Source: Haematospirillum jordaniae. From it: 32,967 nucleotides of DNA. Both the position numbers and the translations under genes were made by a program. The notes under the pieces were generated by a model. It saw only the letters and a program-made list of their open reading frames with translations, did not search any database and had not been told where the DNA came from. Location: sequence record NZ_CP014526.1; one strand, 5' to 3'. This document shows positions 8,399 to 24,771 of the stretch, in pieces (within the stretch, counting starts at the first letter, position 1; each line of letters opens with the position of its first letter).

Positions 8399-10174
8399 AT
8401 GACATGCCTCACAGACAGCATAGAAACGGACACCTCAACGCGCCTAATTGCCCGAAATCTGTTCTGGCAGGGCTACACGGTTGCGGAAATATCCCGCACT
8501 TTGTCCCAGCCCTACGGCACCATTGACGCCTGGAAACGCCGGGATGCATGGCAGGACGCGCCGATACTGACGCGCATAGAGGGGCACGTTGAAACCCGCC
8601 TTATGCGACTGGTGGTCAAGGAGCAGAAGACAGATTCCGACCTTGCGGAGATTGACAATCTTGCACGCATTCTGGAGCGCACGGCCCGCATACAACGCTT
8701 CAAGACAACGGGCCGGGAGTCCGACCTCAACCCGGCCCTTGAGAACCGGGCAAAGGGACGGCGCCGGAAGCGGGAGGAGCAAAACGCCATCAGCGATGAG
8801 CAGGTCTGCACTTTGCGCCACGATTTTCACGCCAATCTGTTTGACTACCAGAAGTACTGGCACAGCGTGCGCCATAACCGGGCGCGCAACATTTTGAAGT
8901 CTCGTCAAATTGGTGCCACGTGGTATTTCGCACGGGAAGCGTTTCTCGATGCGGTAGAAACCGGCGATAACCAGATCTTCCTGAGCGCCTCAAAAGCACA
9001 GGCACATGTTTTCAGGAGCTACATCGTTCAGTGGGCCAAGGATGCTGCCGGTATAGAACTGAAAGGCGATCCTATTGTTCTTGCCAACGGGGCCACACTT
9101 TATTTTTTGGGTACCAACAGCAAAACCGCACAGTCCTACCATGGACACGTATACCTCGATGAGTACTCGTGGATCGCAAAATTCCTGGAATTCCGGAAAG
9201 TCGCATCAGCCATGGCGACGCACAAAAAGTGGCGACTGACTTATTTCTCGACGCCATCCGTAATCGGCAGGGATGCTCACGCCTTCTGGTCCGGGGCCGC
9301 CTGGAACAAGGGGCGGGCGAAGGCAGACAAGGTTGACTTGGATACCTCGCACACAGCCCTCAAGGCGGGGGCCACGGGACCGGATGGGCAGTGGCGGCAG
9401 ATTGTTACAATTGAAGATGCAGAGGCGGGCGGCTGTAACCTGTTCGATATTCCGAACCTCAGGCAGGAATACAACGAACAGGATTTCAGGAACCTGTTCC
9501 TGTGCGAATGGGTTGATGACACCACCTCGTTCTTCACCTTCGAGGAAATGCGCCGGTGCATGGTGGACAGCTGGGACGAATGGAGCGATTTCGCCCCGGA
9601 CCTTGCCCGCCCCTTTGGCGACAATCCGGTATGGATTGGTTACGATCCTGCCCAAACCGCTGACAACGCCTCTGTGGTGGTGGTCGCACCTCCGGCCATG
9701 GATGGCGGCAAATTCCGGGTTATCGAAAAACTATTTGTTAACGGTCAGGATTTTCAGGAGCAGGCAAACCGCATTGAAACACTGACCCGACGCTACAACG
9801 TAGCGCACATCGGCATTGACACCACAACCATTGGCGCTGGTGTTTACGAAATGGTGCGCCGTTTCTTTCCGCAGGCCCGCGCCATTACCTACAGCGTCGA
9901 AGTAAAAACCAGAATGGTCCTGAAAACCAAGCAGTTGGTTACCCGTCGGCGTCTGGAGTTCGACGCGGGTTGGACCGATGTTGCCGCCGCTTTCATGGCC
10001 ATTCGCCGCACCACAACAGCTTCTGGACGGCAAACAACTTTTTCCGCCGGTCGGACCAAGGAAACGGGACACGCCGACGTGGCATGGGCCGTGATGCATG
10101 CAATAGATCGCCTGGATTTCGACGGCTTTGAAAAGGCCGAGGGATCTTCGCACGGATTCATGGAGTTTTTCTGA
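8399..10174 (+). CDS. P: Terminase large (ATPase) subunit gpP
   Basis: 591-aa ORF, the size of P2 gpP, first gene of the P-Q operon. Confidence 0.9.
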   Translation: MTCLTDSIETDTSTRLIARNLFWQGYTVAEISRTLSQPYGTIDAWKRRDAWQDAPILTRIEGHVETRLMRLVVKEQKTDSDLAEIDNLARILERTARIQRFKTTGRESDLNPALENRAKGRRRKREEQNAISDEQVCTLRHDFHANLFDYQKYWHSVRHNRARNILKSRQIGATWYFAREAFLDAVETGDNQIFLSASKAQAHVFRSYIVQWAKDAAGIELKGDPIVLANGATLYFLGTNSKTAQSYHGHVYLDEYSWIAKFLEFRKVASAMATHKKWRLTYFSTPSVIGRDAHAFWSGAAWNKGRAKADKVDLDTSHTALKAGATGPDGQWRQIVTIEDAEAGGCNLFDIPNLRQEYNEQDFRNLFLCEWVDDTTSFFTFEEMRRCMVDSWDEWSDFAPDLARPFGDNPVWIGYDPAQTADNASVVVVAPPAMDGGKFRVIEKLFVNGQDFQEQANRIETLTRRYNVAHIGIDTTTIGAGVYEMVRRFFPQARAITYSVEVKTRMVLKTKQLVTRRRLEFDAGWTDVAAAFMAIRRTTTASGRQTTFSAGRTKETGHADVAWAVMHAIDRLDFDGFEKAEGSSHGFMEFF

Positions 10175-11118
10175 TGAGTTTGGAAACCTTTACCTTTGGC
10201 GACCCCCTTCCGGCCATCGACCAAAGAGACATAATGGGCCTCTTCCATTCCGCGTGGTCCGGCAAGTGGTATGAACCGCCCATGAGCTTTGAAGGCTTGG
10301 CTAAAGCGCTGAATTCCAATCCACACCACCAGAGCGCCATACACTACAAGGCGTCACTGCTTGCATCACGATTCAGACCGAGCCGCCTTTTATCGCGACA
10401 GGACTTCCGGCGGCTGGCACTGGATTTTCTTGTGCTTGGAAATGCGTGGGTCGAACGCCGTCAAAACCGCCTTGGCTCGACACTCCGTCTCCAGCCAACG
10501 GTGGGACGCTGGACGCGCGTGACACGAGATGGCGCGGTTGTCCTTCACGAGGGGCAGGATTATGCGATCCGCGCCCCCCATGTCCTGCACCTGATGAATA
10601 TCGACATCCACCAAGAAATCTACGGTATGCCGGACTACACCGCTGCCTTGCAGAGCGCATTTCTGAACGAAGCCGCAACCCTGTTCCGGCGGCGCTATTA
10701 CCTGAACGGCACACACGCGGGCTTTATTCTTTACATTAGTGATCCGCTCAACAGCCAGGATGACGTGGAGAAGCTGCGGGACCAGATGAAAGGGGCCAAG
10801 GGCATCGGGAATTTCAAAAACATGCTCTTGTACGCCCCGAGCGGCAAGAAAGATGGCGTACAACTGATCCCTATTTCTGAGGTCGCCGCCAAGGACGAAT
10901 TTTTCAGCATGAAAAACGTGACGCGGGACGACATTCTGGCCGCCCATCGCGTCCCGCCACAACTCCTTGGTATCGTGCCTTCGAACGCCGGTGGATTTGG
11001 ATCTGTCGAGAATGCTGCCGCCGTTTTCATCGACAACGAGATCAAACCGTTAATGACGGCATTTGAAGTGGTCAATGACTGGTGCGGTGAACAGGCTGTT
11101 GCGTGGATCGAAGCATAA
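10174..11118 (+). CDS. Q: Portal protein gpQ
   Basis: 314-aa ORF with an ATGA-type junction with P; portal-family sequence. Confidence 0.85.
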   Translation: MSLETFTFGDPLPAIDQRDIMGLFHSAWSGKWYEPPMSFEGLAKALNSNPHHQSAIHYKASLLASRFRPSRLLSRQDFRRLALDFLVLGNAWVERRQNRLGSTLRLQPTVGRWTRVTRDGAVVLHEGQDYAIRAPHVLHLMNIDIHQEIYGMPDYTAALQSAFLNEAATLFRRRYYLNGTHAGFILYISDPLNSQDDVEKLRDQMKGAKGIGNFKNMLLYAPSGKKDGVQLIPISEVAAKDEFFSMKNVTRDDILAAHRVPPQLLGIVPSNAGGFGSVENAAAVFIDNEIKPLMTAFEVVNDWCGEQAVAWIEA

Positions 11119-11179: not shown

Positions 11180-11650
11180 TCAGCGCATGGTGAGGCGGCG
11201 GGGCTTCTGAGGCCGGGGCGCGCCCTCTTCAGCGATTGTGTAGTCTTGAGATGCTGCGGGAATTCCCATTTCGCGCCGGGCCAGATCAGCAAGAAAGGCC
11301 GATCGTGTAAGGCCTCGCTCCTTGGCGGCCTGGTCCGTGGCGTCCAGTAATCCGGCATCCATGGTGATATTGGCGCGCACCGTGCGCCCGGTCAGATGGA
11401 TAAACGGCACGGCCAGCAGAAAAGCTCCATTTTTTAAATCTGCCTGAACATCCCGCAGCCGTCGCACGACCTCAAGGGAGCGGGCACGCGGTATGCGCTC
11501 TCCCTCCAGGTGTAGGGCCACAGCCTCGGCGGCATTGGGAAGAAGCTCATCCAGCGTGTCGGCGGCTGAGAAACATCCGGGGACATCCGGAAAGTGTATC
11601 CCGTAGGCACTGTTTTCATCTTGGTGAACAACACCGATGTAATAACGCAT
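11180..11650 (-). CDS. hicB: HicB-family antitoxin (RNase-H-like N-domain plus C-terminal RHH)
   Basis: MRYYIGVVHQDENSAYGIHFPDVPGCFSAADTLDELLPNAAEAVALHLEG is a typical HicB N-domain. C-terminal NITMDAGLLDATDQAAKERGLTRSAFLADLARRE is RHH-like. Sits downstream of hicA. Confidence 0.75.
   Translation of the reverse strand: MRYYIGVVHQDENSAYGIHFPDVPGCFSAADTLDELLPNAAEAVALHLEGERIPRARSLEVVRRLRDVQADLKNGAFLLAVPFIHLTGRTVRANITMDAGLLDATDQAAKERGLTRSAFLADLARREMGIPAASQDYTIAEEGAPRPQKPRRLTMR
11185..11225. other. Candidate cos site (cohesive-end region)
   Basis: About 70 bp past the Q stop sits GGTGAGGCGGCGGGGCTTCTGAGGCCGGGGCGCGCC, resembling the P2 19-nt cohesive end as recalled (GGCGAGGCGGGGAAAGCAC). P2 cos lies about 80 bp from the end of Q. 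A 9-bp-arm inverted repeat GAGTATTGC...GCAATACTC lies just before it (about 11121..11163). Confidence 0.3.
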
Positions 11651-11665
11651 GAACGTCTCTCCTGC

Positions 11666-11893
11666 CTAAAGTAAACCGGCCTGCCGATAAATCTGACGCA
11701 CTGTACCAATCGGAAGGTCCTTTTTGGGATGCGGTACTGTGACAGTCCGGTCCTCGCATTTGAACTTGTGATGGGATCCGGTAGTTCCGACCAGTTCAAA
11801 GCCATGGGCCTCCAGAAGCTTGATCAGTTTTCGGCTGTTTGTCTCAAACACGGTGCCGCTTTGCCTCCCCTTACGCCCAAGGATTATACGCAT
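11666..11893 (-). CDS. hicA: HicA-family mRNA-interferase toxin
   Basis: C-terminus KLIKLLEAHGFELVGTTGSHHKFKCEDRTVTVPHPKKDLPIGTVRQIYRQAGLL is the HicA signature. Start chosen at the ATG near 11893; alternatives are 11923 or an internal start. Confidence 0.65.
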   Translation of the reverse strand: MRIILGRKGRQSGTVFETNSRKLIKLLEAHGFELVGTTGSHHKFKCEDRTVTVPHPKKDLPIGTVRQIYRQAGLL

Positions 11894-11923
11894 TATGATA
11901 CACACGGTCAAGCTTTGGCGCAT

Positions 11924-11939
11924 TATAATACGTATTATA
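11924..11939. promoter_or_regulatory. Palindromic operator/promoter of hicAB (TATAATACGTATTATA)
   Basis: Perfect 16-bp palindrome overlapping TATAAT boxes immediately upstream of hicA. The related direct repeat CGCATTATGATAC is about 30 bp away. Confidence 0.4.
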
Positions 11940-12065
11940 TTCGGGAGAGTGCCCGGCGCAGCCTCACATAGAGGCAGCGATGACGGGACAGCAAAGCAAG
12001 GCAGATACCGCATGCATCCAGCGTGTCAGTAAGGATGGGACGGACACAGCCGCGCCCGCAATAAA

Positions 12066-12100
12066 GACCATTTTCGCAGCGTCACGAAAATGGTGGTGAG
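12066..12100 (-). terminator. Hairpin downstream of the mazEF-like operon
   Basis: ACCATTTTCG-N8-CGAAAATGGT, a 10-bp-arm inverted repeat just after the toxin stop. The T-tract is weak. Confidence 0.3.
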
Positions 12101-12107
12101 ATCTTGC

Positions 12108-12431
12108 TCACCCGAACCCGAGGAACAGCGCCAAAGCCCTATTCACGCTGACCATGGTTTTATCATCCAGCCTGCCAAAAGCCTCGCCCACCTTGTCACG
12201 ACGCACGGTCATAACCTTGTCGACCATGATCTGTGAGGGCTTGCGCAGCCCGTTGTCAGTATCCGGAACAATATCCATGCGGATCAGCGGTGCATCAACC
12301 AATGTGCCTGTCATCAGCAGAACCGAGACGGTTGCCGTCTCAATAAACTGATCGGATTGGATCACCAAGGCCGGGCGCGGCTTCCCGAAGTCGCCCGGCA
12401 AGGAGATAGTCACAAGATCACCGCGCCTCAA
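12108..12431 (-). CDS. PemK/MazF-family endoribonuclease toxin
   Basis: MRRGDLVTISLPGDFGKPRPALVIQSDQF... is a classic MazF/Kid N-terminus. 107 aa. Confidence 0.8.
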   Translation of the reverse strand: MRRGDLVTISLPGDFGKPRPALVIQSDQFIETATVSVLLMTGTLVDAPLIRMDIVPDTDNGLRKPSQIMVDKVMTVRRDKVGEAFGRLDDKTMVSVNRALALFLGFG

Positions 12432-12652
12432 GGTTGCGCCTCATCGTCCAGATCGAGAAGAGCCGCGTCCATAAAGTCATACAAACCAGCGTCTGCCCTG
12501 TCCGCGCGAGCCACAACATGGGCTTGGCGCTGGCATTCCTCTCTGAAACCCGGTTGGCGGGTATCAGGAATCCATATCTGGACTGGCCGGAGTCCCGCAG
12601 CCCTCAGAGCAGCCCGGCGCTTGTTTACCCGCCCAGAGACTGGCGTTGGCAT
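12428..12652 (-). CDS. Cognate antitoxin (MazE/PemI-like, small DNA-binding)
   Basis: 74 aa with a 4-nt overlap with the toxin; acidic C-terminus; RAALRAAGLRPVQIWIPD motif. Confidence 0.55.
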   Translation of the reverse strand: MPTPVSGRVNKRRAALRAAGLRPVQIWIPDTRQPGFREECQRQAHVVARADRADAGLYDFMDAALLDLDDEAQP

Positions 12653-12678
12653 GGGGGCCTCCTGTATATAAGCCTACG

Positions 12679-12692
12679 CGTTACATGTAACG
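12679..12692. promoter_or_regulatory. Operator palindrome CGTTACATGTAACG upstream of the mazEF-like operon
   Basis: Perfect 14-bp palindrome next to TATATA, about 30 bp upstream of the antitoxin start. Confidence 0.4.
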
Positions 12693-12751
12693 TAACCGAT
12701 GGTGGGTGGAGGTGTCAAGACCAGTCTCTTTCCGCGCTTTTTTTAGACCTA

Positions 12752-12835
12752 TCCAGCGAAGACAGCTCACAGCCTTATGCAACTAAATTCAGTTGCATTT
12801 AAAGGATCCTTTCCCTATACTGGGGGCACAAGCTA
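12752..12835. repeat. Direct repeat copy A (about 80 bp), containing the hicAB-2 promoter/operator
   Basis: GCGAAGACAGC..CAGCCTTATGCAACT(A/G)AATT(C/T)AGTTGCAT.TAAAGGATC.TTTCCCTATACT recurs at 13600..13680. It contains the inverted repeat TGCAACTNAATTNAGTTGCA and a TATACT -10-like box, followed by a Shine-Dalgarno and hicA-2. Confidence 0.6.
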
Positions 12836-12849
12836 GGAATTAAGGTGGC

Positions 12850-13104
12850 ATGAACAGGCGTAGCAAGCTGGTGGACCGTTTCCGGGCCTGCCCCAAGGAC
12901 TTCACATGGAAAGAACTGGTGAAGGTTCTGGAAGGCTTTGGGTACACAGAGGTCACCGGCGGCAAGACAGGTGGTTCGCGTCGTCGTTTTATCCATCCCG
13001 ATGCCGCCTCCCTTTCCTTGCACAAGCCGCATCCAGGGACCATCCTGAAGCTGTATGCGCTCGAAGCTGTTTTACAGCATCTGAAAGACGAGGGCCTTCT
13101 ATGA
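12850..13104 (+). CDS. hicA: HicA-family toxin (second copy, long form)
   Basis: FTWKELVKVLEGFGYTEVTGGKTGGSRRRFIHPD...LHKPHPGTILKLYALEAVLQHL is the HicA/YcfA fold signature. Confidence 0.7.
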   Translation: MNRRSKLVDRFRACPKDFTWKELVKVLEGFGYTEVTGGKTGGSRRRFIHPDAASLSLHKPHPGTILKLYALEAVLQHLKDEGLL

Positions 13105-13529
13105 AGACAATGATGGAGTACAAAGGGTATTACGGAAGCGCTGAGTTCAGTCCTGACGACGAGGTTTTTCACGGAAAGCTCGAATTCATCCGCGATCTGG
13201 TCACCTATGAATCAGACGACGCCAAAGGTCTGAAGCGGGCCTTCCATGAAGCCGTTGATGATTACTTGGCGCTTTGCCATGAAAATGGACGCAAGCCGCA
13301 AGTCCCCATGAAAGGCTCCTTCAACGTCCGGGTCGGGCGCGACCTGCATCGCCGCGCCATGCTGAGCGCTCATCGACATGGCGTGGGACTGAACGACACC
13401 GTAACAGAGGCCCTGCGCCGCTACCTGGACGAAGTGGACGAACTGTTACCGGAGCATCTGCGCCATGGCATGCCGGAAGCTCAGGAACACAATGACAAAC
13501 CTGGGCGGCGTCCGCTCGCCTCACGGTAA
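13101..13529 (+). CDS. hicB: HicB-family antitoxin (second copy)
   Basis: ATG at 13101 overlaps the hicA stop (ATGA). N-domain MKTMMEYKGYYGSAEFSPDDEVFHGKLEFIRD... and C-terminal RHH (SFNVRVGRDLHRRAMLSAHRHGVGLNDTVTEALRRYL). Confidence 0.7.
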   Translation: MKTMMEYKGYYGSAEFSPDDEVFHGKLEFIRDLVTYESDDAKGLKRAFHEAVDDYLALCHENGRKPQVPMKGSFNVRVGRDLHRRAMLSAHRHGVGLNDTVTEALRRYLDEVDELLPEHLRHGMPEAQEHNDKPGRRPLASR

Positions 13530-13550
13530 AAGCTGGTAACGGCAGCATCC

Positions 13551-13612
13551 GTGCCGTTTTCCGCCGCTATAGCGGCGCTCCAGAGCGCCTTCCTGAACGA
13601 GGCCGCGAAGAC
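13551..13612 (+). pseudogene. Orphan fragment of a portal (Q-like) gene
   Basis: Encodes ...AAIAALQSAFLNEAA, matching gpQ residues ...YTAALQSAFLNEAA (10640..10680) at about 75% nucleotide identity. It is fused directly to repeat copy B, and no full portal ORF is present there. Confidence 0.5.
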
Positions 13613-13680
13613 AGCCCGCAGCCTTATGCAACTGAATTTAGTTGCATATAAAGGATCTTTTCCCTATACTAATGGCACGG
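13600..13680. repeat. Direct repeat copy B (partner of 12752..12835)
   Basis: Same ~80-bp unit with the TGCAACTGAATTTAGTTGCA inverted repeat. No gene follows on the plus strand. Confidence 0.6.
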
Positions 13681-13932
13681 CAGGAAAAGCAGAAAAAAAC
13701 GAAGTCTCCCCCCGCCACGCTTGCGGCTTAAATATGCCTCACATTCTGCAGTGCAGAGAGTGCCTCTACGCCAGCAGTTGCCTTGCTTTCCACGCACCAT
13801 GGAGACCTGTCAAATCTCTGCATTTTTCTGCTGTTATTCTGCAGTACGCCGCACGGTGATTAACAGGCCGCCAAGGCAATAGCCTATCAACATTACCATA
13901 TCCCCATATTTGTAAATTTACGCATTGCCATA

Positions 13933-14178
13933 TCAGGCGATTGGCGGATAATCATACTTCTTGAACAAATCATTCAGCGCCTCGGTTACAAGCTCCTTTA
14001 TCGAGTTCCGCCGCATCTCAAGTCGCATTTTGTCAACTTGGTAATGCGCCTCTGCCGGTATCTCGACGATCAATTTCTTTGTCGGTCGCTCAATTGGCGT
14101 AAGCCCCGGGTCAATGGTGACAGGCGTTTTAGGCGTGAGTTTATTATGCAATGCAGCGTGCAGGCTTGGCTTTGCCAT
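13933..14178 (-). CDS. parG: ParG-like RHH partition protein (centromere-binding)
   Basis: From the internal start: MAKPSLHAALHNKLTPKTPVTIDPGLTPIERPTKKLIVEIPAEAHYQVDKMRLEMRRNSIKELVTEALNDLFKKY. This is a small basic protein with an RHH fold, immediately downstream of parA. The start is uncertain (overlaps parA by about 35 nt). Confidence 0.5.
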   Translation of the reverse strand: MAKPSLHAALHNKLTPKTPVTIDPGLTPIERPTKKLIVEIPAEAHYQVDKMRLEMRRNSIKELVTEALNDLFKKYDYPPIA

Positions 14179-14803
14179 GTGTCTTGCTCTCCATCTGGTT
14201 AATAATAAAACGGTATAATGCTGCGATTTCTTCGGCGGCTTTACTGTCTGATCCAAGCTCCTGAACGCCCTTGCCCATTGTGAAGGCATGAACAAAGGCC
14301 ATGCGATTGCCAATGGTGACGGGGGCAAGCGCAACGCCGTACCCTCTGATCGCCTCGGCGGCCTCCTCCGTAAGACTCCCGCGCGGTGGAGTTTGGGTCA
14401 GAACGGAAACAGCGGGCTTGCCTGCAAGCTGGGCTATTTTCACACTCGAACTGATTGCGCGTAGATCAACAAGCGACGGCTTGCACGGGATCAAGATCAG
14501 GTCAGCAAAGGCAGCGGCATCCAGAGCATCTTTTTGTGAGTGCGGAGCCGTATCAAAAATGACAAAGGCTGCTCCACTCTGGCGGGCAGTTTCGATGTAA
14601 TGCGGAATGCGGGCGGCATGAAGGGAAATGACTGCGGGTGACTCATCGTCTCGGCTGTCCTTCCACCCCATAGACGATGCCTGCGGATCAAGATCGAAGA
14701 TTGCGGCCGCCCTACCATCACGTTCAGCAGCGATTGCAAGATTAATGGCAAGGGTCGTTTTACCGGCCCCTCCTTTTTGCGATATGACAGCTATTGTCCT
14801 CAT
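14144..14803 (-). CDS. parA: ParA/ParF-type partition ATPase (small type Ib)
   Basis: Deviant Walker A box KGGAGKTT near the N-terminus (MRTIAVISQKGGAGKTTLAINLA). About 219 aa. Confidence 0.8.
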   Translation of the reverse strand: MRTIAVISQKGGAGKTTLAINLAIAAERDGRAAAIFDLDPQASSMGWKDSRDDESPAVISLHAARIPHYIETARQSGAAFVIFDTAPHSQKDALDAAAFADLILIPCKPSLVDLRAISSSVKIAQLAGKPAVSVLTQTPPRGSLTEEAAEAIRGYGVALAPVTIGNRMAFVHAFTMGKGVQELGSDSKAAEEIAALYRFIINQMESKTHGKAKPARCIA

Positions 14804-14804
14804 A

Positions 14805-15060
14805 CCATATCCCCATATTGCCACATTTAATGTTTTTTACATGGCCATATTTACTGATTGTCATACTGCCATAATTATCCAAATTTACAACCCCTTATCA
14901 GGGTACACCTTCGTCGTCGTAAAAAACGTTGTAAGCGTCTTTGCATTCGTCAGAGCATAGCTCCTGCACGTCCACCGATACTATATAGGTATACTTATGG
15001 GGGATTATTTCAGCCGTATCGCGATGCTAAGGCTTTAATCATTAATTGGTGTATACGTAT
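14805..15060. repeat. AT-rich repeat array upstream of parA (candidate centromere/par operator)
   Basis: Multiple (T/G)GCCATA(T/A) and CCATAT motifs (ccatatccccatattgccacat..ggccatatttactgattgtcatactgccataatt). The 16-mer ACCATATCCCCATATT recurs downstream of parG at about 13889. Confidence 0.35.
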
Positions 15061-15353
15061 TTATTTATGATAAAAAGAATACCTTGAACTATAAAATACA
15101 ACATATGATTTTTGAAGTTAGATTCATCCATGAAAAAGATGACTCAATAAACTAAGTCAGATTAATAGCATTAATGGGGTTGTCAGAAAAAAGCCTCTGT
15201 GCTGACATGTAGACCACATTCAACTTCACCTGTATCGATATCAGCGTCATTCACAAGCACAGCTAGAAAAAGCTGATCCGTTTTAATGTTTAGGAACAAT
15301 GGAAAACCAAGCATCACTTGCGTGGGACAACATCAGTACGAGAGAAAATTATA

Positions 15354-15743
15354 ATGTCGAAGAAACGTGTTTTTGTAAGTTTTGACTACGACAATGACAA
15401 TGAATTAAAGGAATTGCTCGTTGGGCAAGCAAAAAATCCCGACACGCCGTTCGAACTCGCAGACTGGTCTATAAAAGAACACCTGACAGGGGATTGGAAA
15501 GATAAAGCAAAAAAAAGAATTCGGTCTGTAGACCAAGTAATTGTTCTCTGCGGCGAGAGCACACACAAGGCAAATGGCGTTGCCGATGAACTTAGAATAA
15601 CTCAAGAAGAGGGAAAAGATTATTTCTTGTTGAAAGGTTATAAGGATAAAGAATGTACAAAACCGACATCAGCTCTTAAAACAGATAAAATGTATACATG
15701 GAATTGGGACAATCTCAAGGCGTTAATAAATGGGAACCGCTAG
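15354..15743 (+). CDS. TIR-like domain protein (DUF1863/ThsB-like)
   Basis: MSKKRVFVSFDYDNDNELKELLVGQAKNP... and VDQVIVLCGESTHKANGVADELRITQEEGKDYFLL match the DUF1863 TIR-like hallmark (RVFISF-DYD start; vivLiGe-T---WV--Ei motif with the catalytic-position Glu). The gene and its surroundings are markedly AT-rich compared with the rest of the window. Confidence 0.7.
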   Translation: MSKKRVFVSFDYDNDNELKELLVGQAKNPDTPFELADWSIKEHLTGDWKDKAKKRIRSVDQVIVLCGESTHKANGVADELRITQEEGKDYFLLKGYKDKECTKPTSALKTDKMYTWNWDNLKALINGNR

Positions 15744-15748
15744 ATCCC

Positions 15749-16249
15749 ATGATTGGCGTCTGGAACAGAGAAAGCAAGGATTGCATCGAACGCGAAAAAG
15801 AGATCGCAACAGAGCAATACAAACTTTATGTTGAGATGGCTGATAAGATCAGCGATCGGCGCGTACATGCAAACAAATTTTATGTTGCCCTCAATTCTAG
15901 CCTAATAGCTTTTTACGGCTTCGCTACAGCCAAGAACTCCATCGTCCAAAATGATTCTTGGCTGTATCTAGTGCTTATAGCCGGAATTCTTATTTGTTTT
16001 TTGTGGATCGAAACCGTCAAATCATACAAGAATATTAATACAGTCAAATTCAAGGTGATACATGAAATAGAGGAACACCTTCCTCTTGCACTATATAAAT
16101 ACGAGTGGGAGCTTGCCAAGCAAGGCGATGGATCAAAATACCGCCCTACATCGCATATTGAAATGATTGTTCCATGGGTATTTGGATTTCTTTACGTAAT
16201 AATTGTATCATGCAAATGCTACTCTTATTTTTTTGAACTTTATCATTAA
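15749..16249 (+). CDS. Small membrane protein with 2-3 TM helices, SLATT-like; candidate effector partner of the TIR protein
   Basis: Starts 5 nt after the TIR stop (same operon). Hydrophobic helices FYVALNSSLIAFYGFATA, WLYLVLIAGILICFLWIETV and IVPWVFGFLYVIIVSC, with a charged N-terminal helix and a helical segment between TM2 and TM3. The size (~166 aa) and topology fit SLATT-type 2TM effector domains that associate with TIR/SMODS/SLOG genes. Same low-GC composition as the TIR gene. Confidence 0.45.
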   Translation: MIGVWNRESKDCIEREKEIATEQYKLYVEMADKISDRRVHANKFYVALNSSLIAFYGFATAKNSIVQNDSWLYLVLIAGILICFLWIETVKSYKNINTVKFKVIHEIEEHLPLALYKYEWELAKQGDGSKYRPTSHIEMIVPWVFGFLYVIIVSCKCYSYFFELYH

Positions 16250-16254
16250 ATGTC

Positions 16255-16300
16255 CTTGATCGGGGGCGATGTTTGCCGGACCCCGATCAAGCGATTTATT
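16255..16300 (+). terminator. Rho-independent terminator after the TIR/TM operon
   Basis: CTTGATCGGGG-N-CCCCGATCAAG stem followed by a TTTATTTTT run. Confidence 0.5.
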
Positions 16301-16455
16301 TTTCTTAAAGCACCTACGCATAAACGGCCATTTACAAGCCGGTCCGGTTTCGAGACACCGGGCACGGCAACAGGCGGCGTCCACGCTCTCAAAAACCACG
16401 CTTGAAACCATGTCGGTTCTTGGTGATGTTTACGATGCGTTTTGAGGGAGATGTC

Positions 16456-17010
16456 ATGCTGATCGGCTACGCCCGCGTTTCGACGCGAGACCAGACCACA
16501 GAGCTACAGACAGAGGCGTTGTCGGCAGCCGGTTGCGAGCGCGTGTTCGAGGACCAGACCAGCGGCAGCCGTGAAGACCGTCCCGGCCTTTCCAGTGCGC
16601 TGGATTACCTGCGCACTGGTGACACACTGGTGGTGTGGAAGCTGGACCGTCTGGGCCGGACCGTGAAGCAGCTTGTGCATCTGGTTGACAGCCTTCAGGC
16701 CCGTGGCATCCACTTCCGCAGCCTCACCGACGGCATAGATACCGGAAGCCCGGCAGGCCGGTTCTTCTTCCACATCATGGCCAGCCTTGCCGAGATGGAG
16801 CGCGACCTGATCGCCGAAAGAACACGCGCCGGACTGGACGCCGCCCGGAAAGCCGGACGCAAAGGAGGGCGCCCCGCAAAGATGACCCCCGGCAAGATCA
16901 CGGCAGCCCGCAAGCTTCTGGAAACCGGAACACCCGCCCGCACCGTCGCCGAGAGTCTCGGCGTGTCACCCGCTACACTGTACCGCTGGCTGCCTGCCCA
17001 GACGGCTTAG
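16456..17010 (+). CDS. Small serine recombinase (resolvase/invertase family)
   Basis: MLIGYARVSTRDQTTELQ...GDTLVVWKLDRLGR is the catalytic Ser motif and resolvase N-domain, with a C-terminal HTH (VAESLGVSPATLYRWL). Likely start at 16456 with Shine-Dalgarno GAGGGAG. 184 aa. Confidence 0.85.
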   Translation: MLIGYARVSTRDQTTELQTEALSAAGCERVFEDQTSGSREDRPGLSSALDYLRTGDTLVVWKLDRLGRTVKQLVHLVDSLQARGIHFRSLTDGIDTGSPAGRFFFHIMASLAEMERDLIAERTRAGLDAARKAGRKGGRPAKMTPGKITAARKLLETGTPARTVAESLGVSPATLYRWLPAQTA

Positions 17011-17016
17011 CGTGCT

Positions 17017-17550
17017 TTATTTTCCGTTTTCTGAGACGCCGCTTTTATCAGCTATAGCTTCGCGCAAGAGAGCGTTAAGTCGGTCCTGCCATCCATCGCC
17101 CTCAGAGTGAAGATACTCAAGGATATCAGGATCGAGACGAACGGGTGCTGTTCTTGTTACACGCGCCAAGGGAGAACAGCCGCTCCGTACGGGGATTTTT
17201 TCAAGCGCTTCTGCCCATTCAGGGATATCTGTGTCCTGTTCTTGTTTTTCTACAGACATTTTCTGAATGGCCAGTCTCAAACCCATGGTGCGCAAAATCG
17301 CCATCAAGCTGCGAATCTCCGGGTTTCCTTTGTGCGACAGGGTACGATACAACTGGTTCGGGTTCAGCGCTGCCGCCTTTGCCACCTGACGCACCCCCCC
17401 GAATGCTGCGGCCATCTGGCGCAGAGCTATCAGCAGTTCCCCTTGATCACCATCTTCCAGAATGCTGTTCAGCAATGCCTCGGCATAAGCAGGATCATTA
17501 CGAAACACTTCTGCCATAGCTGTATCATGTTCCCGGTCTTTCATTGTCAA
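17017..17550 (-). CDS. HTH antitoxin (addiction-module antidote family) with a C-terminal BrnA-like extension
   Basis: The N-terminal ~100 aa (FRNDPAYAEALLNSILEDGDQGELLIALRQMAAAFGGVRQVAKAAALNPNQLYRTLSHKGNPEIRSLMAILRTMGLRL) match the antidote partner of RelE/ParE-type killers. The C-terminal ~70 aa (VRLDPDILEYLHSEGDGWQDRLNALLREAI) resemble the BrnA motif. Immediately downstream of the toxin. Confidence 0.55.
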   Translation of the reverse strand: MTMKDREHDTAMAEVFRNDPAYAEALLNSILEDGDQGELLIALRQMAAAFGGVRQVAKAAALNPNQLYRTLSHKGNPEIRSLMAILRTMGLRLAIQKMSVEKQEQDTDIPEWAEALEKIPVRSGCSPLARVTRTAPVRLDPDILEYLHSEGDGWQDRLNALLREAIADKSGVSENGK

Positions 17551-17556
17551 ACCTCT

Positions 17557-17874
17557 TTAACGTTTCTGCCAGTCTTGCCAGTACGAACAAGCGCGCTCAA
17601 TGTCGGCCTTCTGCCTTCGCTTGTCCCCACCGCAGAGCAGAAGGACAATTTCCTTGCCTGCTCTTGCAAAGTAAACGCGATAGCCTGGACCAACGTCGAT
17701 GCGCAGCTCATACACACCATCACGCAATGGTTTATGATCACCAAAATTACCGAGTTCCATGCGGTAAATACGACGATCAATGGCAACCAGGGCCTTGGTG
17801 TCCCGTATTTGCTCACGCCATTCGGCAAAGTGGTCCCGGCCATTTGAATCGAGATAGTGTCGTATCGTCTGCAT
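17557..17874 (-). CDS. RelE/ParE-superfamily toxin (addiction-module killer)
   Basis: 105 aa, upstream of the HTH antitoxin with a 6-nt gap. Sequence features are typical of the killer-protein family (MQTIRHYLDSNGRDHFAEWREQI...GVYELRIDVGPGYRVYFARAGKEIVLLLCGGDKRRQ). Confidence 0.7.
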   Translation of the reverse strand: MQTIRHYLDSNGRDHFAEWREQIRDTKALVAIDRRIYRMELGNFGDHKPLRDGVYELRIDVGPGYRVYFARAGKEIVLLLCGGDKRRQKADIERACSYWQDWQKR

Positions 17875-21105: not shown

Positions 21106-21151
21106 GATAGACCCCGCGCGGAGTTAACGGCACAGTGACCCGATGAGTGAC

Positions 21152-22042
21152 AAGAAACAGAATATTGCGTTTGCACCCATGCTCCCCCGTCTCCGGTTGT
21201 GGCCGGAGCAAAGTTCCCGGGAAGAGGCGCTGGTGCTCCGGGGGCTAAAAAAACCGCAACAAGTCGGCCCCGCACACCTTTGGCCTTTCGGCTTGGACAT
21301 GCGCGTGCGGCCCCCGGAACATGGGCATGAAAACACCGCCTTGCGGGGCGGGACCGCTTGTTGTGGGAGATTTTTAGGCTCCTGCCCCGAACCTTACCCG
21401 CAACAGGCGTGGAATGCAAGCACCGCTGTGCTGGCAAAAAGGGCGTGGCAAGAACAGAATATTGCGCGTGCACCCATGCTCCCCCGTCTCCGGTTGTGGC
21501 CGGAGAAACCACACCGGAAGAAGGTGCAGGCGCTCCGGGGGTTAAAACCGCCGCAACAAGTCGGCCCCGCACACCTTTGGCCTTTCGGCTTGGACATGCG
21601 CGTGCGGCCCCCGGAACATGGGCATGAAAACACCGCCTTGCGGGGCGGGACCGCTTGTTGTGGGAGGGTTTTAAGCTCCTGCCCCGAACGTTACCCGCAA
21701 CAGGCGTGGAATGCAAGCACCGCTGTGCTGGCAAAAAGGGTGTGGCAAGAACAGAATATTGCGTTTGCACCCATGCTCCCCCGTCTCCGGTTGTGGCCGG
21801 AGCAAAGTTCCCGGGAAGGGGTGCTGGTGCTCCGGGGGATAGAAACACCGCAACAAGTCGGCCCCGCACACCTTTGGCCTTTCGGCTTGGACATGCGCGT
21901 GCGGCCCCCGGAACATGGGCATGAAAATACCGCCTTGCGGGGCGGGACCGCTTGTTGTGGGAGGTTTCTATTCTCCTGCCCCGAACGTTACCCGCAACAG
22001 GCGTGGAATGCAAGCACCACTGTGCTGGCAAAAAGGGCGTGG
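21152..22042. repeat. Tandem repeat array: 3 copies of a 297-bp unit (about 90-95% identical)
   Basis: Units begin GAACAGAATATTGCG(T/C)(T/G)TGCACCCATGCTCCCCCGTCTCCGGTTGTGGCCGGAG at about 21154, 21452 and 21749 (period 297 = 99 codons). Long ORFs are open on both strands purely because of the 3n periodicity. Confidence 0.85.
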
Positions 22043-24056: not shown

Positions 24057-24143
24057 CCTAAAAAGGTTGTTTTCTGCAATCATTATAAACCGAGAGTAAG
24101 CATTGCCGACATCTTGGAGACGCAGGAAATCTCTACAAAACAA

Positions 24144-24181
24144 TGAATTGTGCTTGATTTGCGCATATTATGCGCTATAAT
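24144..24181 (+). promoter_or_regulatory. Sigma70-like promoter TTGATT-N16-TATAAT with an embedded palindromic operator GCGCATATTATGCGC
   Basis: Near-consensus -35/-10 boxes with a perfect 15-bp palindrome in the spacer. It is followed by a ~200-nt GC-rich leader with strong hairpins (GGGGGCGGGCTGGTCCGCCTCCCC; CCGGGAGGGAGAGATCAGCTCTCTCCCGG) before the first ORF. Confidence 0.4.
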
Positions 24182-24379
24182 CGGAGGCGTGGTCAGGGGG
24201 CGGGCTGGTCCGCCTCCCCGCCACGAAACAGAGGAAGAGCATGGAAAAACTTCCATTCTTCCTCTCCCTTCGGGTTAAATTTCTGGGTCTTACCCTGAAA
24301 CTTGTAATCCGGAGGTAGAGGACACCGGGAGGGAGAGATCAGCTCTCTCCCGGACCTCTGAAAGGATAAGGCAGCACTC

Positions 24380-24547
24380 ATGAAAATGCAACTCCGTGGA
24401 TTTGCCGCCGCCTTGCTGCTGGCAGCCCTTCTGGGGGCCTTGGCCTTGCTTGTCAGCGGGTTGCTCGCGGCCTTGGCGATAGCTGTACCTGTTCTTGTTA
24501 TTCTGGCCGTGCTGTTTGGAAAACCAGTGCAGGAGGATGACCAATGA
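24380..24547 (+). CDS. Small hydrophobic protein (55 aa, 2 predicted TM helices). Not in the ORF track because it is under 60 aa.
   Basis: Shine-Dalgarno AAGGATAAGG then ATG. Product MKMQLRGFAAALLLAALLGALALLVSGLLAALAIAVPVLVILAVLFGKPVQEDDQ. The stop overlaps the start of the downstream HTH gene (ATGA). Confidence 0.35.
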   Translation: MKMQLRGFAAALLLAALLGALALLVSGLLAALAIAVPVLVILAVLFGKPVQEDDQ

Positions 24548-24771
24548 CACCACGTGATTTCAGGGCCTGGCGGCGAAAGATGGGCCTGACCCAAGAGCAG
24601 GCGGCTGAACTTCTTGGCATGGGCCGTACTGCTGTATCACAGTACGACACAGGCAAACGCCGCGCCCCGGCAGAGGTTATAGAGACAGTGCCCCGGTATA
24701 TTGCGCTGGCATGCGCAGCCATCAGCCACGGACTTGCGCCGTATGGTTCGGATGAGGAGGAAGGCCGCTAG
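24544..24771 (+). CDS. XRE-family HTH transcriptional regulator
   Basis: MTPRDFRAWRRKMGLTQEQAAELLGMGRTAVSQYDTGKRRAPAEVIETV is a classic Cro/CI-type HTH. 75 aa. Confidence 0.6.
   Translation: MTPRDFRAWRRKMGLTQEQAAELLGMGRTAVSQYDTGKRRAPAEVIETVPRYIALACAAISHGLAPYGSDEEEGR

What the first reader, a model, noticed from the sequence alone, without database searches (positions are those of the whole stretch)
12752..13680. hicAB-2 cassette bracketed by ~80-bp direct repeats; the second repeat is fused to an orphan portal-gene fragment
The repeat (GCGAAGACAGC..CAGCCTTATGCAACTNAATTNAGTTGCAT.TAAAGGATC.TTTCCCTATACT) carries an operator-like inverted repeat and a -10 box, and in copy A drives hicA-2/hicB-2. 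Copy B is in frame with a 60-bp stretch encoding AALQSAFLNEAA, the same peptide as gpQ residues encoded at 10640..10680. It follows that the repeat boundary lies exactly where Q-like sequence stops. This looks like a scar of cassette capture or exchange by recombination within a portal gene of a related phage, or a mobile promoter-TA cassette with defined ends.
Basis: seen in the sequence. Interest (0 to 1): 0.6.

Follow-up and report, generated by a model that had tools for sequence, protein, structure and literature searches.

The report
Duplicated hicAB promoter with portal-gene scar
A toxin-antitoxin gene pair in a P2-like phage of Haematospirillum is followed by a spare copy of its own promoter, fused to a 43-base scrap of a related phage's portal gene; this is a real but ordinary recombination scar in the variable region next to the phage's probable packaging site.

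Summary
Two 74-nt direct repeats (12756-12829 and 13605-13678, 88% identical) flank hicA-2/hicB-2. The 12 codons before copy B encode the portal motif AALQSAFLNEAA.

The repeat is the hicAB family's own promoter and HicB operator, TGCAACT-N6-AGTTGCA followed by TATACT. The same palindrome precedes hicAB operons in unrelated metagenomes and in an Omnitrophota genome. Copy B is therefore an orphan promoter/operator.

The portal scrap (13565-13609) is real. It matches the portal gene of a related phage (L018) at 41 of 43 bases, against 23 of 26 for the window's own portal gene.

Copy B abuts a conserved non-coding element (13679-13835). This element lies downstream of P2-type portal genes in all eight related loci where both were in view, so it is most likely cos.

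The whole block, copy A through cos, recurs in L018 behind different left neighbours, with hicA decayed. A sister phage (L043) lacks both copies and has a methyltransferase gene there instead. One metagenome variant keeps a 42-nt scrap of that methyltransferase fused near copy A.

All junctions show microhomology. The repeats are not the ends of a mobile cassette. This is patchwork from illegitimate recombination in the known cos-proximal hotspot of P2-like phages. Interest is modest.

The parts
10174..11118 (+). Resident portal gene Q (314 aa). The motif AALQSAFLNEAA is encoded at 10642-10677.
   Evidence: PF04860, E 5.5e-18. Homologues of 310-365 aa cover 95-100% of it in nearly all cases, so it is complete. 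Motif located.
12753..12764 (+). CCAGCGAAGACA, the microhomology at the left junction of copy A and the site of a 47-bp deletion relative to metagenome variant L009.
   Evidence: L009 has 47 extra bases here, flanked by CCGGCAAAGACA and CCAGCGAAGACA. Of these, 42 are 100% identical to L043 14110-14151, inside an N6_N4 methyltransferase gene.
12756..12845 (+). Repeat copy A, the promoter and operator of hicAB-2. Operator palindrome 12778-12797, -35-like TTGCAT 12793-12798, -10 TATACT 12816-12821, then the leader with Shine-Dalgarno AAGGTGG.
   Evidence: The same palindrome and -10 spacing lie upstream of hicA in L013, L016, L017 and L002.
12850..13104 (+). hicA-2 toxin gene (84 aa).
   Evidence: PF07927 HicA_toxin, E 2.1e-11. 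It is a pseudogene in the L018 lineage.
13101..13529 (+). hicB-2 antitoxin gene (142 aa). Family homology ends near 13448; 13449-13529 is a 26-aa read-through tail.
   Evidence: PF05534, E 4e-14. 3372 homologues at E<=1e-10, and nearly all of the 120 best are about 116 aa; the tail has no counterpart in eight aligned homologues. A family profile hits ribbon-helix-helix (CopG-type) structures at positions 73-114. Against L018, 9 of 12 core differences are at codon position 3, versus 2, 1 and 1 across the three positions in the tail.
13530..13564 (+). Filler of unknown origin between the hicB-2 stop and the portal scrap. The perfect 16-nt palindrome CGCCGCTATAGCGGCG (13562-13577) starts inside it and runs 13 nt into the portal scrap. 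L018 has 26 extra bases here.
   Evidence: No significant match to any locus examined.
13565..13609 (+). Orphan fragment of a portal gene (codons about 154-168), donated by an L018-like phage.
   Evidence: 41 of 43 identical plus a 2-nt gap to L018 8461-8505, inside L018's portal gene. Only 23 of 26 to the window's own Q. blastn E 2e-10 and 5e-11. The exact motif variant occurs in 3 of the 38 portal homologues in which the motif pattern was found, out of 120 examined.
13605..13691 (+). Repeat copy B, an orphan hicAB promoter/operator. Palindrome 13627-13646, TTGCAT 13642-13647, TATACT 13665-13670. It ends at about the predicted transcription start and points into the next element.
   Evidence: 94% identical to copy B of L018. 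The palindrome arms and the -10 box are invariant in all four copies (A and B in both lineages), while the 6-nt spacer varies.
13679..13835 (+). Conserved non-coding element, most likely the phage cos region. Core AGTCTCCCCCCGCCACGC at 13703-13720, with repeated TCTGCA motifs. Homology with L018 continues to 13877.
   Evidence: 81.5% identical to H. jordaniae plasmid NZ_CP014527.1. Found after P2-type portal genes, in the same orientation, at about 93 to 3900 nt in L042, L064, L058, L074, L048, L047, L070 and L043. No RNA family match and no covarying structure.

Best explanation
The region is a patchwork built by successive illegitimate (microhomology-mediated) recombination events. It lies in the variable interval between the portal gene and the probable cos site of a P2-like phage, or phage-plasmid, of Haematospirillum.

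The roughly 80-nt repeat is the native sigma-70-type promoter of this hicAB family, with the HicB operator overlapping its -35 region. HicB is a ribbon-helix-helix antitoxin, and the operator is the palindrome TGCAACT-N6-AGTTGCA. Copy A drives the autoregulated hicA-2/hicB-2 operon.

Copy B is a second, orphan copy of the same promoter/operator. It has lost, or never had, its own genes, and it ends about where transcription would start. On its left it is joined to a 43-nt scrap of the portal gene of a related (L018-like) phage. On its right it is joined to the left edge of the cos element.

This composite block formed once, before it spread. The order is copy A, hicAB, filler, portal scrap, copy B. 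It is now in two phage lineages whose backbones are only 76% identical, while the block itself is 91-100% identical segment by segment.

In the window's lineage the block replaced most of a methyltransferase gene that normally sits next to cos. A 42-nt methyltransferase remnant survives in one variant (L009). In the window that remnant was removed by a 47-bp deletion between CCGGCAAAGACA and CCAGCGAAGACA.

Shown: the repeat, the conservation of the operator, the origin of both gene scraps, the comparative arrangements and the microhomologies. Inferred: HicB binding, activity of both promoters, the order of events, and the identity of the downstream element as cos. Copy B would be expected to bind HicB-2 and, when derepressed, to fire across cos. 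Nothing here shows that this matters to the phage.
For: - Repeat and palindromes.
- HicA, HicB and ribbon-helix-helix assignments.
- The same palindrome, followed at a similar distance by a CATACT- or CATTAT-type hexamer, lies upstream of hicA in metagenome loci whose HicB is 72-76% identical (L013, L016, L017). The palindrome also lies 27 nt upstream of a hicAB operon with 48%-identical HicB in an Omnitrophota genome (L002).
- HicB-2 has a 26-aa tail absent from eight aligned homologues, and nearly all of the 120 best homologues are about 116 aa. The native 3' end of the cassette has therefore been lost.
- The portal scrap matches L018's Q at 41/43 and the window's Q at 23/26. All 8 differences from the window's Q are synonymous.
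- L018, L019 and L020 carry the same double-repeat block with the same scrap but different left neighbours. Identity is 91-100% in the block's segments, 87% in the cos element and 76% in the backbone.
- L043 has a 96% identical backbone but no hicAB-2 and no repeat. Instead it has an IS200/605 element and a methyltransferase gene next to the same element.
- L009's extra 42 nt are 100% identical to part of that methyltransferase gene. A methyltransferase gene lies between the portal gene and the element in L070 and L048, and one follows the portal gene in L049, where the element was not detected.
- The element lies downstream of portal genes in eight relatives.
- Literature: P2-like phages have a hotspot of variable genes next to cos, between gpA and the portal gene (PMC9122126). 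Small intergenic remnants of core genes in these hotspots are read as leftovers of intense recombination (PMC13586616).
Against: - No experiment shows that either promoter fires or that HicB-2 binds. The simple promoter scan did not flag either copy, because the -35 hexamer TTGCAT matches only 3 of 6 consensus bases.
- The order of events is reconstructed from four arrangements only.
- How copy B arose cannot be decided. It could be a tandem duplication followed by loss of the second gene pair, or a second decayed hicAB cassette.
- The cos assignment rests on position and conservation. Similarity to the P2 cohesive end is not significant, and no contig ends at the site.
- Copy B's palindrome arms and -10 box are intact in both lineages. 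That could mean it is kept by selection rather than being a passive scar.
Confidence: 0.7

Rival explanations
1. Copy B is kept because it works. One version: it is a second HicB operator that cooperates with copy A, for example by DNA looping over 849 bp, or that titrates HicB. Another version: it is a HicB-controlled promoter that transcribes across cos and antisense to the RHH/ParA partition genes. Either would link the state of the toxin-antitoxin pair to packaging or to plasmid partition. Its origin by recombination would still hold.
For: The palindrome arms (14 nt) and TATACT are invariant in all four copies, while the 6-nt spacer and flanks vary. Copy B is 94% identical between lineages, against 87% for the adjacent cos element. 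It is retained in L018, where hicA is dead but hicB is intact and under purifying selection, with 9 of 12 changes at codon position 3. The promoter points into cos and then runs antisense to the genes at 13933-14824.
Against: Only two lineages are known and few substitutions separate them, so the conservation could simply reflect recent spread. No ORF or structured RNA follows copy B: changes in the small ORF are mostly non-synonymous (and my reading of it), and there is no covariation. hicAB loci elsewhere have a single operator.
Confidence: 0.15
2. The two repeats are the functional ends of a mobile promoter-TA cassette. They could be recombination sites for a site-specific recombinase, or the product of a circular cassette integrating into a resident copy of the repeat.
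For: Direct repeats bracket the gene pair. Between window and L018, identity in the segments of the block from copy A to copy B is 91-100%, and it falls to 87% beyond copy B. A resolvase gene lies 2.7 kb away at 16402-17010.
Against: The repeat is the family's ordinary promoter/operator. L043 lacks both copies rather than keeping one. The homology shared with L018 starts inside copy A and continues 186 nt past copy B. The left junctions differ and sit at microhomologies. No other cargo was found in any collection. The copies are 12% diverged.
Confidence: 0.07
3. The element after copy B is a small RNA gene or the terminator of the partition operon, not cos, and copy B is that RNA's promoter.
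For: Copy B ends at the predicted start site, exactly at the element's edge. A weak terminator-like hairpin with a T-run lies on the minus strand at 13716-13698.
Against: No Rfam match even at E<=1. Across 13 sequences the consensus fold is -5.8 kcal/mol with no supporting covariation, and conservation falls in ungapped sequence blocks. In relatives the element is preceded by unrelated sequence and has no conserved promoter. It tracks the portal gene, not ParA.
Confidence: 0.05

Closest known systems
hicAB type II toxin-antitoxin operons with a ribbon-helix-helix HicB that represses its own promoter
   Same: HicA (PF07927) lies upstream of HicB (PF05534) with overlapping stop and start codons. 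HicB has a C-terminal ribbon-helix-helix region. A palindromic operator overlaps the promoter and is conserved across the family.
   Different: A second, gene-less copy of the promoter/operator sits 849 nt downstream. HicB carries a 26-aa read-through tail. No solved structure is close enough to be detected by sequence.
The cos-proximal hotspot of variable (defence and accessory) genes in P2-like phages, such as the old/tin locus of P2 (Rousset et al. 2022, PMC9122126)
   Same: Variable accessory genes are packed between the portal gene and the early genes, around cos, and differ between otherwise similar phages.
   Different: In P2 itself cos is 168 nt from the Q stop and the variable genes lie on the far side of cos. 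In this alphaproteobacterial clade genes are also inserted between the portal gene and the putative cos, at about 93 to 3900 nt. The cargo here is mostly toxin-antitoxin pairs and a methyltransferase.
Small intergenic remnants of core genes in P2/P4 hotspots, read as leftovers of recombination (NAR 2026, PMC13586616)
   Same: A very short intergenic piece with homology to a core phage gene, inside the variable locus.
   Different: Here the donor lineage can be named (L018-like portal gene, 41/43). A second scrap, from a methyltransferase, is caught at the equivalent junction of the other repeat copy, and the microhomologies at the junctions are visible.
The cos site of phage P2
   Same: A non-coding site near the end of the portal gene, in a fixed orientation, conserved more strongly than its surroundings.
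   Different: Sequence similarity to the 19-nt P2 cohesive end is not significant. The distance from the portal gene is variable. Cleavage is untested.

Membership tests
hicAB type II toxin-antitoxin system | Toxin with a HicA domain | tested here: met
   PF07927, E 2.1e-11, 44.2 bits against a cutoff of 27.
hicAB type II toxin-antitoxin system | Adjacent HicB antitoxin with a DNA-binding (ribbon-helix-helix) domain, co-oriented in one operon | tested here: met
   PF05534, E 4e-14. ATGA overlap at 13101-13104. The family profile hits CopG-type ribbon-helix-helix structures, E 0.0024.
hicAB type II toxin-antitoxin system | Autoregulation through antitoxin binding to a palindromic operator in the promoter | tested here: inconclusive
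   The palindrome and -10 box are conserved upstream of hicA in four independent loci, including another phylum. Binding and repression cannot be tested with these tools.
hicAB type II toxin-antitoxin system | Toxicity of HicA (RNA cleavage) neutralised by HicB | not testable with these tools
   This needs expression experiments.
Mobile gene cassette with defined terminal repeats (transposon-, integron- or MITE-like) | The repeats coincide with the edges of the unit that moves | tested here: not met
   The block shared with L018 runs from 12771, inside copy A, to 13877, which is 186 nt past copy B.
Mobile gene cassette with defined terminal repeats (transposon-, integron- or MITE-like) | Empty sites keep one repeat or a target duplication | tested here: not met
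   L043 has a 96% identical backbone but lacks hicAB-2 and both repeat copies.
Mobile gene cassette with defined terminal repeats (transposon-, integron- or MITE-like) | The same ends occur with different cargo or at many sites | tested here: not met
   No copy was found outside this phage group in the phage, plasmid, viral-contig or metagenome collections, or with the 23-nt palindrome pattern in the genome collection. The palindrome alone recurs, but only as the hicAB operator.
P2-type cos site | A conserved non-coding site beside the portal gene, in a fixed orientation | tested here: met
   The element lies downstream of, and co-oriented with, P2-type portal genes in L042, L064, L058, L074, L048, L047, L070, L043 and the window. 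Conservation is in sequence blocks without RNA covariation.
P2-type cos site | Sequence related to the known P2/P4 core cos | tested here: inconclusive
   By eye there is a CCCCGCC.CGC core in the right orientation. However, the best local alignment of the P2 core to the window lies elsewhere, and 275 of 300 shuffles score as well. The pattern is expected 0.3 times by chance.
P2-type cos site | Terminase cleavage giving cohesive ends | not testable with these tools
   This needs sequencing of virion DNA ends. No contig end coincided with the site.
Recombination remnant (short core-gene pseudogene) in the P2 cos-proximal hotspot | A short intergenic fragment homologous to a core phage gene, lying inside the variable locus next to cos | tested here: met
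   A 43-nt portal fragment matching L018's Q at 41/43. It lies between the portal gene and the putative cos, among variable genes.

The most novel reading that the evidence does not exclude
The orphan promoter/operator (copy B) is a working regulatory part. HicB-2 would hold it shut. When antitoxin levels fall, it would fire across the packaging site and antisense into the partition genes. This would couple the toxin-antitoxin state of a P2-like phage-plasmid to packaging or segregation. Alternatively, the two operators could loop the DNA to tighten hicAB repression.
Probability: 0.12. Interest if true: 0.55.

Novelty: new member of a known kind. Interest (0 to 1): 0.3.

Why it matters
The finding gives an unusually legible example of how accessory genes are shuffled in the hotspot next to the packaging site of P2-like phages. 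Two gene scraps have identifiable donors, the junctions show microhomology, and four related arrangements order the events. It also yields two usable by-products. One is a conserved operator sequence for a large HicB family (3372 homologues at E<=1e-10). The other is a candidate cos element for an alphaproteobacterial branch of P2-like phages, which also occurs on a Haematospirillum plasmid and on contigs without a nearby portal gene. None of this overturns current understanding. It illustrates that understanding in a little-studied emerging human pathogen.

Tried and rejected
- Repeat searches. DNA searches of 12600-13900 against phages found nothing. Against plasmids they found only the downstream element. 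Exact-pattern scans for the repeat in viral contigs and metagenomes found nothing.
- Genome scan for the palindrome. It found two hits. One turned out to be a true hicAB operator in an Omnitrophota genome. The other, in a Lachnospiraceae genome, has no hicAB in view and was not pursued.
- Downstream element in viral contigs. A 19-mer from the element hit only an unrelated low-GC phage gene.
- Portal peptide. tblastn of the 42-aa peptide around the portal scrap against phages returned nothing.
- Similarity to known cos sites. Direct alignment to P2 cos, and a shuffle test of the P2 core, were not significant. The Burkholderia phage Menos genome ends gave no match. A profile search of distant P2-like viral contigs (portal 48-53% identical) gave nothing.
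- RNA. Rfam gave no match at the gathering threshold or at E<=1. A consensus fold of 13 copies showed no covariation. The small-RNA reading was therefore dropped.
- Remaining filler (13449-13564). It has no convincing homology to anything. A weak collinear tblastx pairing with L018's portal gene (37% over 30 aa) was judged to be noise.
- Solved structures. None was detectable for HicA-2 or HicB-2 by sequence.
- CRISPR-like reading. Both scraps are about 42-43 nt and abut a repeat, which briefly suggested repeat-spacer units. I rejected this because there is no repeat on their left side, there are only two units, and the repeat is a promoter.
Full report
**Observation.** The repeat finder reports one long direct repeat in 12000-14500: 12756-12829 against 13605-13678, 74 nt, 88% identical, 849 nt start to start. 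With two small gaps the similarity continues to about 12845 and 13691, which is as far as the ribosome-binding region of copy A. Each copy contains a perfect palindrome, TGCAACT-N6-AGTTGCA, at 12778-12797 and 13627-13646. These are the only exact matches in the window. After each palindrome comes TTGCAT, a 17-nt spacer and TATACT. Between the copies lie hicA-2 (12850-13104, PF07927) and hicB-2 (13101-13529, PF05534), overlapping in ATGA. The twelve codons at 13572-13607 encode AALQSAFLNEAA. This is identical to portal residues 157-168, encoded at 10642-10677. Eight of the 36 bases differ and all eight changes are synonymous.

**What the repeat is.** It is the ordinary promoter and operator of this hicAB family.
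- HicB-2 has 3372 homologues at E<=1e-10.
- In metagenome loci whose HicB is 72-76% identical, the region upstream of hicA holds TGCAACTGATTTCAGTTGCA (L013), TGCAACTGATTTTAGTTGCA (L017) or TGCGACTGAAAACGGTTGCA (L016). Each is followed at a similar distance by CCCATACT or CCCATTAT. One further arrangement, seen in L014 and L015, lacks the palindrome in the 160 nt upstream of hicA.
- The genome-wide scan for the palindrome hit an Omnitrophota genome. There TATGCAACTAAATTTAGTTGCATA lies 27 nt upstream of a hicAB operon whose HicB is 48% identical.
- The C-terminal part of the HicB family profile matches ribbon-helix-helix (CopG-type) structures. Such proteins bind inverted repeats.

I infer that HicB-2 binds the palindrome, which overlaps the -35 hexamer, and represses both copies. 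This is not shown. The simple promoter scan did not flag either copy, because TTGCAT matches only 3 of 6 consensus bases.

**Edges of the cassette.** Nearly all of the 120 best family members are about 116 aa, whereas HicB-2 is 142 aa. In an alignment with eight homologues the last 26 residues have no counterpart. Against L018 the differences in this tail show no codon-position bias (2, 1, 1), whereas the core shows 2, 1, 9. The native 3' end of the cassette was therefore lost near 13448. What follows up to 13604 is filler, and its last 43 nt are the portal scrap.

**The portal scrap.**
- The motif xALQSA[FL]LNE[AS]A-TLFRR is well conserved among the P2-type portal homologues in which it was found (38 of the 120 examined). 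The exact variant seen here occurs in 3 of those 38.
- The portal P0123 is 81% identical to the window's portal and led to a related phage found in several sequencing runs (L018-L022).
- Window 13565-13609 matches L018's own portal gene (L018 8461-8505) at 41 of 43 positions plus a 2-nt gap. It matches the window's own portal gene at only 23 of 26.
- The 2-nt deletion completes a perfect 16-nt palindrome at 13562-13577.

The scrap is therefore a true fragment of the portal gene of an L018-like phage. Its right end overlaps the repeat by GCGA.

**What lies after copy B.**
- The 157 nt from 13679 to 13835 are 81.5% identical to a stretch of Haematospirillum jordaniae plasmid NZ_CP014527.1.
- A profile of this element, and an exact scan for its core AGTCTCCCCCCGCCACGC, found it in many P2-like loci. 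Wherever a portal gene was in view it lay upstream, in the same orientation, at a variable distance: about 93 nt (L042), 145 (L064), 1031 (L058), 1069 (L074), about 1250 (L048), about 1850 (L047), 2372 (L070), about 2585 (window) and about 3880 (L043).
- Conservation falls in ungapped blocks: the core, TTCTGCA.TGCAGA, and TCTCTGCA. There is no RNA-family match and no covarying structure.
- In P2 itself, cos lies 168 nt beyond the portal stop codon.

I conclude that the element is most likely cos, with roughly 75-80% confidence. The portal-to-cos interval would then be an insertion hotspot in this clade. Sequence similarity to the P2 cohesive end is not significant, and cleavage is untested.

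**Comparative arrangements.** The window belongs to Haematospirillum. The 97%-identical portal P0121 is named from Haematospirillum sp. 15-248, and the same protein sequences occur in NCBI assemblies GCA_012102595.1 and related ones.
- **L018, L019 and L020.** The backbone is 76% identical. The same block is present: copy A, hicA, hicB, filler, portal scrap, copy B and cos, up to window 13877. Identity is 91-100% from copy A to copy B and 87% in the cos element. The left neighbours differ. There the block follows the portal gene and a pair of small genes (an HTH/MqsA-like antitoxin and a 55-aa ORF) whose homologous DNA lies inverted at window 24137-24758. Homology with the window starts only at 12771, inside copy A. 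hicA is broken in this lineage and hicB is intact.
- **L043.** The backbone is 96% identical. It lacks hicAB-1, hicAB-2 and both repeat copies. Its order is portal, a 156-aa ORF, mazEF, an IS200/605 element, an N6_N4 methyltransferase gene on the minus strand, then cos. A methyltransferase gene lies between the portal gene and the element in L070 and L048, and one follows the portal gene in L049, where the element was not detected.
- **L009.** This metagenome contig is 99% identical across hicAB-2 but only 92.6% across mazEF. It has 47 extra bases just upstream of copy A. Of these, 42 are 100% identical to L043 14110-14151, inside that methyltransferase gene.

**History and mechanism.** All three states continue after the shared sequence ...GACCTAT with a CCRGCNAAGA-type string. 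L043 has CCGGCCAAGAGG, L009 has CCGGCAAAGACA (from the methyltransferase gene) and the window has CCAGCGAAGACA (the left edge of copy A). The simplest history has three steps.
1. The composite block replaced the 5' part of the methyltransferase gene, up to the edge of cos.
2. A deletion between short imperfect repeats left a 42-nt remnant, which is the L009 state.
3. A further 47-bp deletion between CCGGCAAAGACA and CCAGCGAAGACA removed that remnant, giving the window state.

The portal scrap's junction with copy B (GCGA) and copy B's junction with cos (GGCA..) also show short overlaps. Because the scrap is L018-like and present in both lineages, the block was assembled once, probably in an L018-like phage, and then spread. 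Conserved cos offers homology for one crossover. How copy B itself arose cannot be decided from four arrangements. It could be a duplication followed by loss of a second gene pair, or the stump of an older hicAB cassette.

**Function.** Copy A should drive an autoregulated hicAB-2. Copy B retains the palindrome arms and TATACT unchanged in both lineages, while the spacer varies. It would be expected to bind HicB-2 and to fire into cos and antisense to the RHH/ParA genes at 13933-14824. Whether this matters is open, and I give it about 0.12-0.15. The ORF 13551-13859 has no family match. The small ORF inside the element changes mostly non-synonymously between copies.

**Relation to what is known.** P2-like phages are known to carry a hotspot of variable genes next to cos, between gpA and the portal gene (PMC9122126). 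A 2026 survey reports that most pseudogenes in P2 and P4 are very small intergenic pieces, about half of which lie in defence-associated loci. The authors read the small intergenic pieces in defence loci as remnants of intense recombination (PMC13586616). The present case is a clear instance of that phenomenon in an alphaproteobacterial relative. The cargo here lies on the portal side of the putative cos. It is a new member of a known kind, not a new mechanism.

**Limits.** Everything functional is inferred. The relatives number four arrangements from one genus plus metagenomes. The genome collection could be scanned only once.

Noticed in passing
window 13679-13835; L001 8001-8157 (plasmid NZ_CP014527.1 149324-149480); L056, L063, L073: The putative cos element also occurs on a 303-kb H. 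jordaniae plasmid, beside a RepA fragment and a type II CRISPR-Cas9 locus, with a second place in the same record. It also occurs on metagenome contigs with no portal gene within 3-6 kb upstream. These could be satellites or plasmids that borrow the phage's packaging site, or prophage remnants.
   Followed up: partly
window 21147-22042: Three tandem copies of a 297-bp unit (92% matches) lie in the early region. They overlap long ORFs on both strands. They could be replication-origin repeats or a repeated protein domain.
   Followed up: no
window 15318-16249: A low-GC island (38.5% against about 56%) encodes a ThsB-like TIR protein and an 8xMP protein. It is a candidate anti-phage defence pair just beyond cos and the partition genes.
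   Followed up: no
window 11180-17874: Four toxin-antitoxin pairs lie within 7 kb: hicAB-1 (11180-12013, minus strand), mazEF (12108-12652, minus strand), hicAB-2, and a BrnA/HigB-like pair (17017-17874, minus strand). ParA, a ribbon-helix-helix partner and a resolvase are also present.
   Followed up: partly
window as a whole; contigs JAAVSX010000015.1 (32.7 kb) and JAAVTF010000016.1 (33.6 kb): No integrase or gpA-type replication gene was recognised among the ORFs examined. Together with ParA, the resolvase, the toxin-antitoxin load and phage-sized contigs, this suggests a P2-like phage-plasmid rather than an integrated prophage.
   Followed up: partly
L018 9724-9822 and 9848-10276: In the related phage, hicA-2 is a frameshifted and deleted pseudogene. 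hicB-2 is intact, with 9 of 12 substitutions at third codon positions. It is an orphan antitoxin kept with both operator copies.
   Followed up: partly
window 24137-24758 versus L018 8971-9592: A segment of about 620 bp, carrying in L018 an HTH/MqsA-like antitoxin gene and a 55-aa ORF, sits next to tail gene D in the window. In L018 it sits inverted, immediately after the portal gene (86% identical). It is a translocated module.
   Followed up: no
L043 12289-13961: The sister phage carries an IS200/IS605 element (a Y1 transposase gene plus TnpB) exactly where the window has hicAB-2, between mazE and the methyltransferase gene.
   Followed up: no
window 13562-13577: A perfect 16-nt palindrome, CGCCGCTATAGCGGCG, is completed by the 2-nt deletion at the left end of the portal scrap. 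It has no T-run, so it is not an obvious terminator.
   Followed up: no
L003 4527-4549: A Lachnospiraceae genome contains the exact palindrome TATGCAACTAAATTTAGTTGCAT with no hicAB homologue in the 8 kb fetched. It may be chance or an orphan operator.
   Followed up: partly
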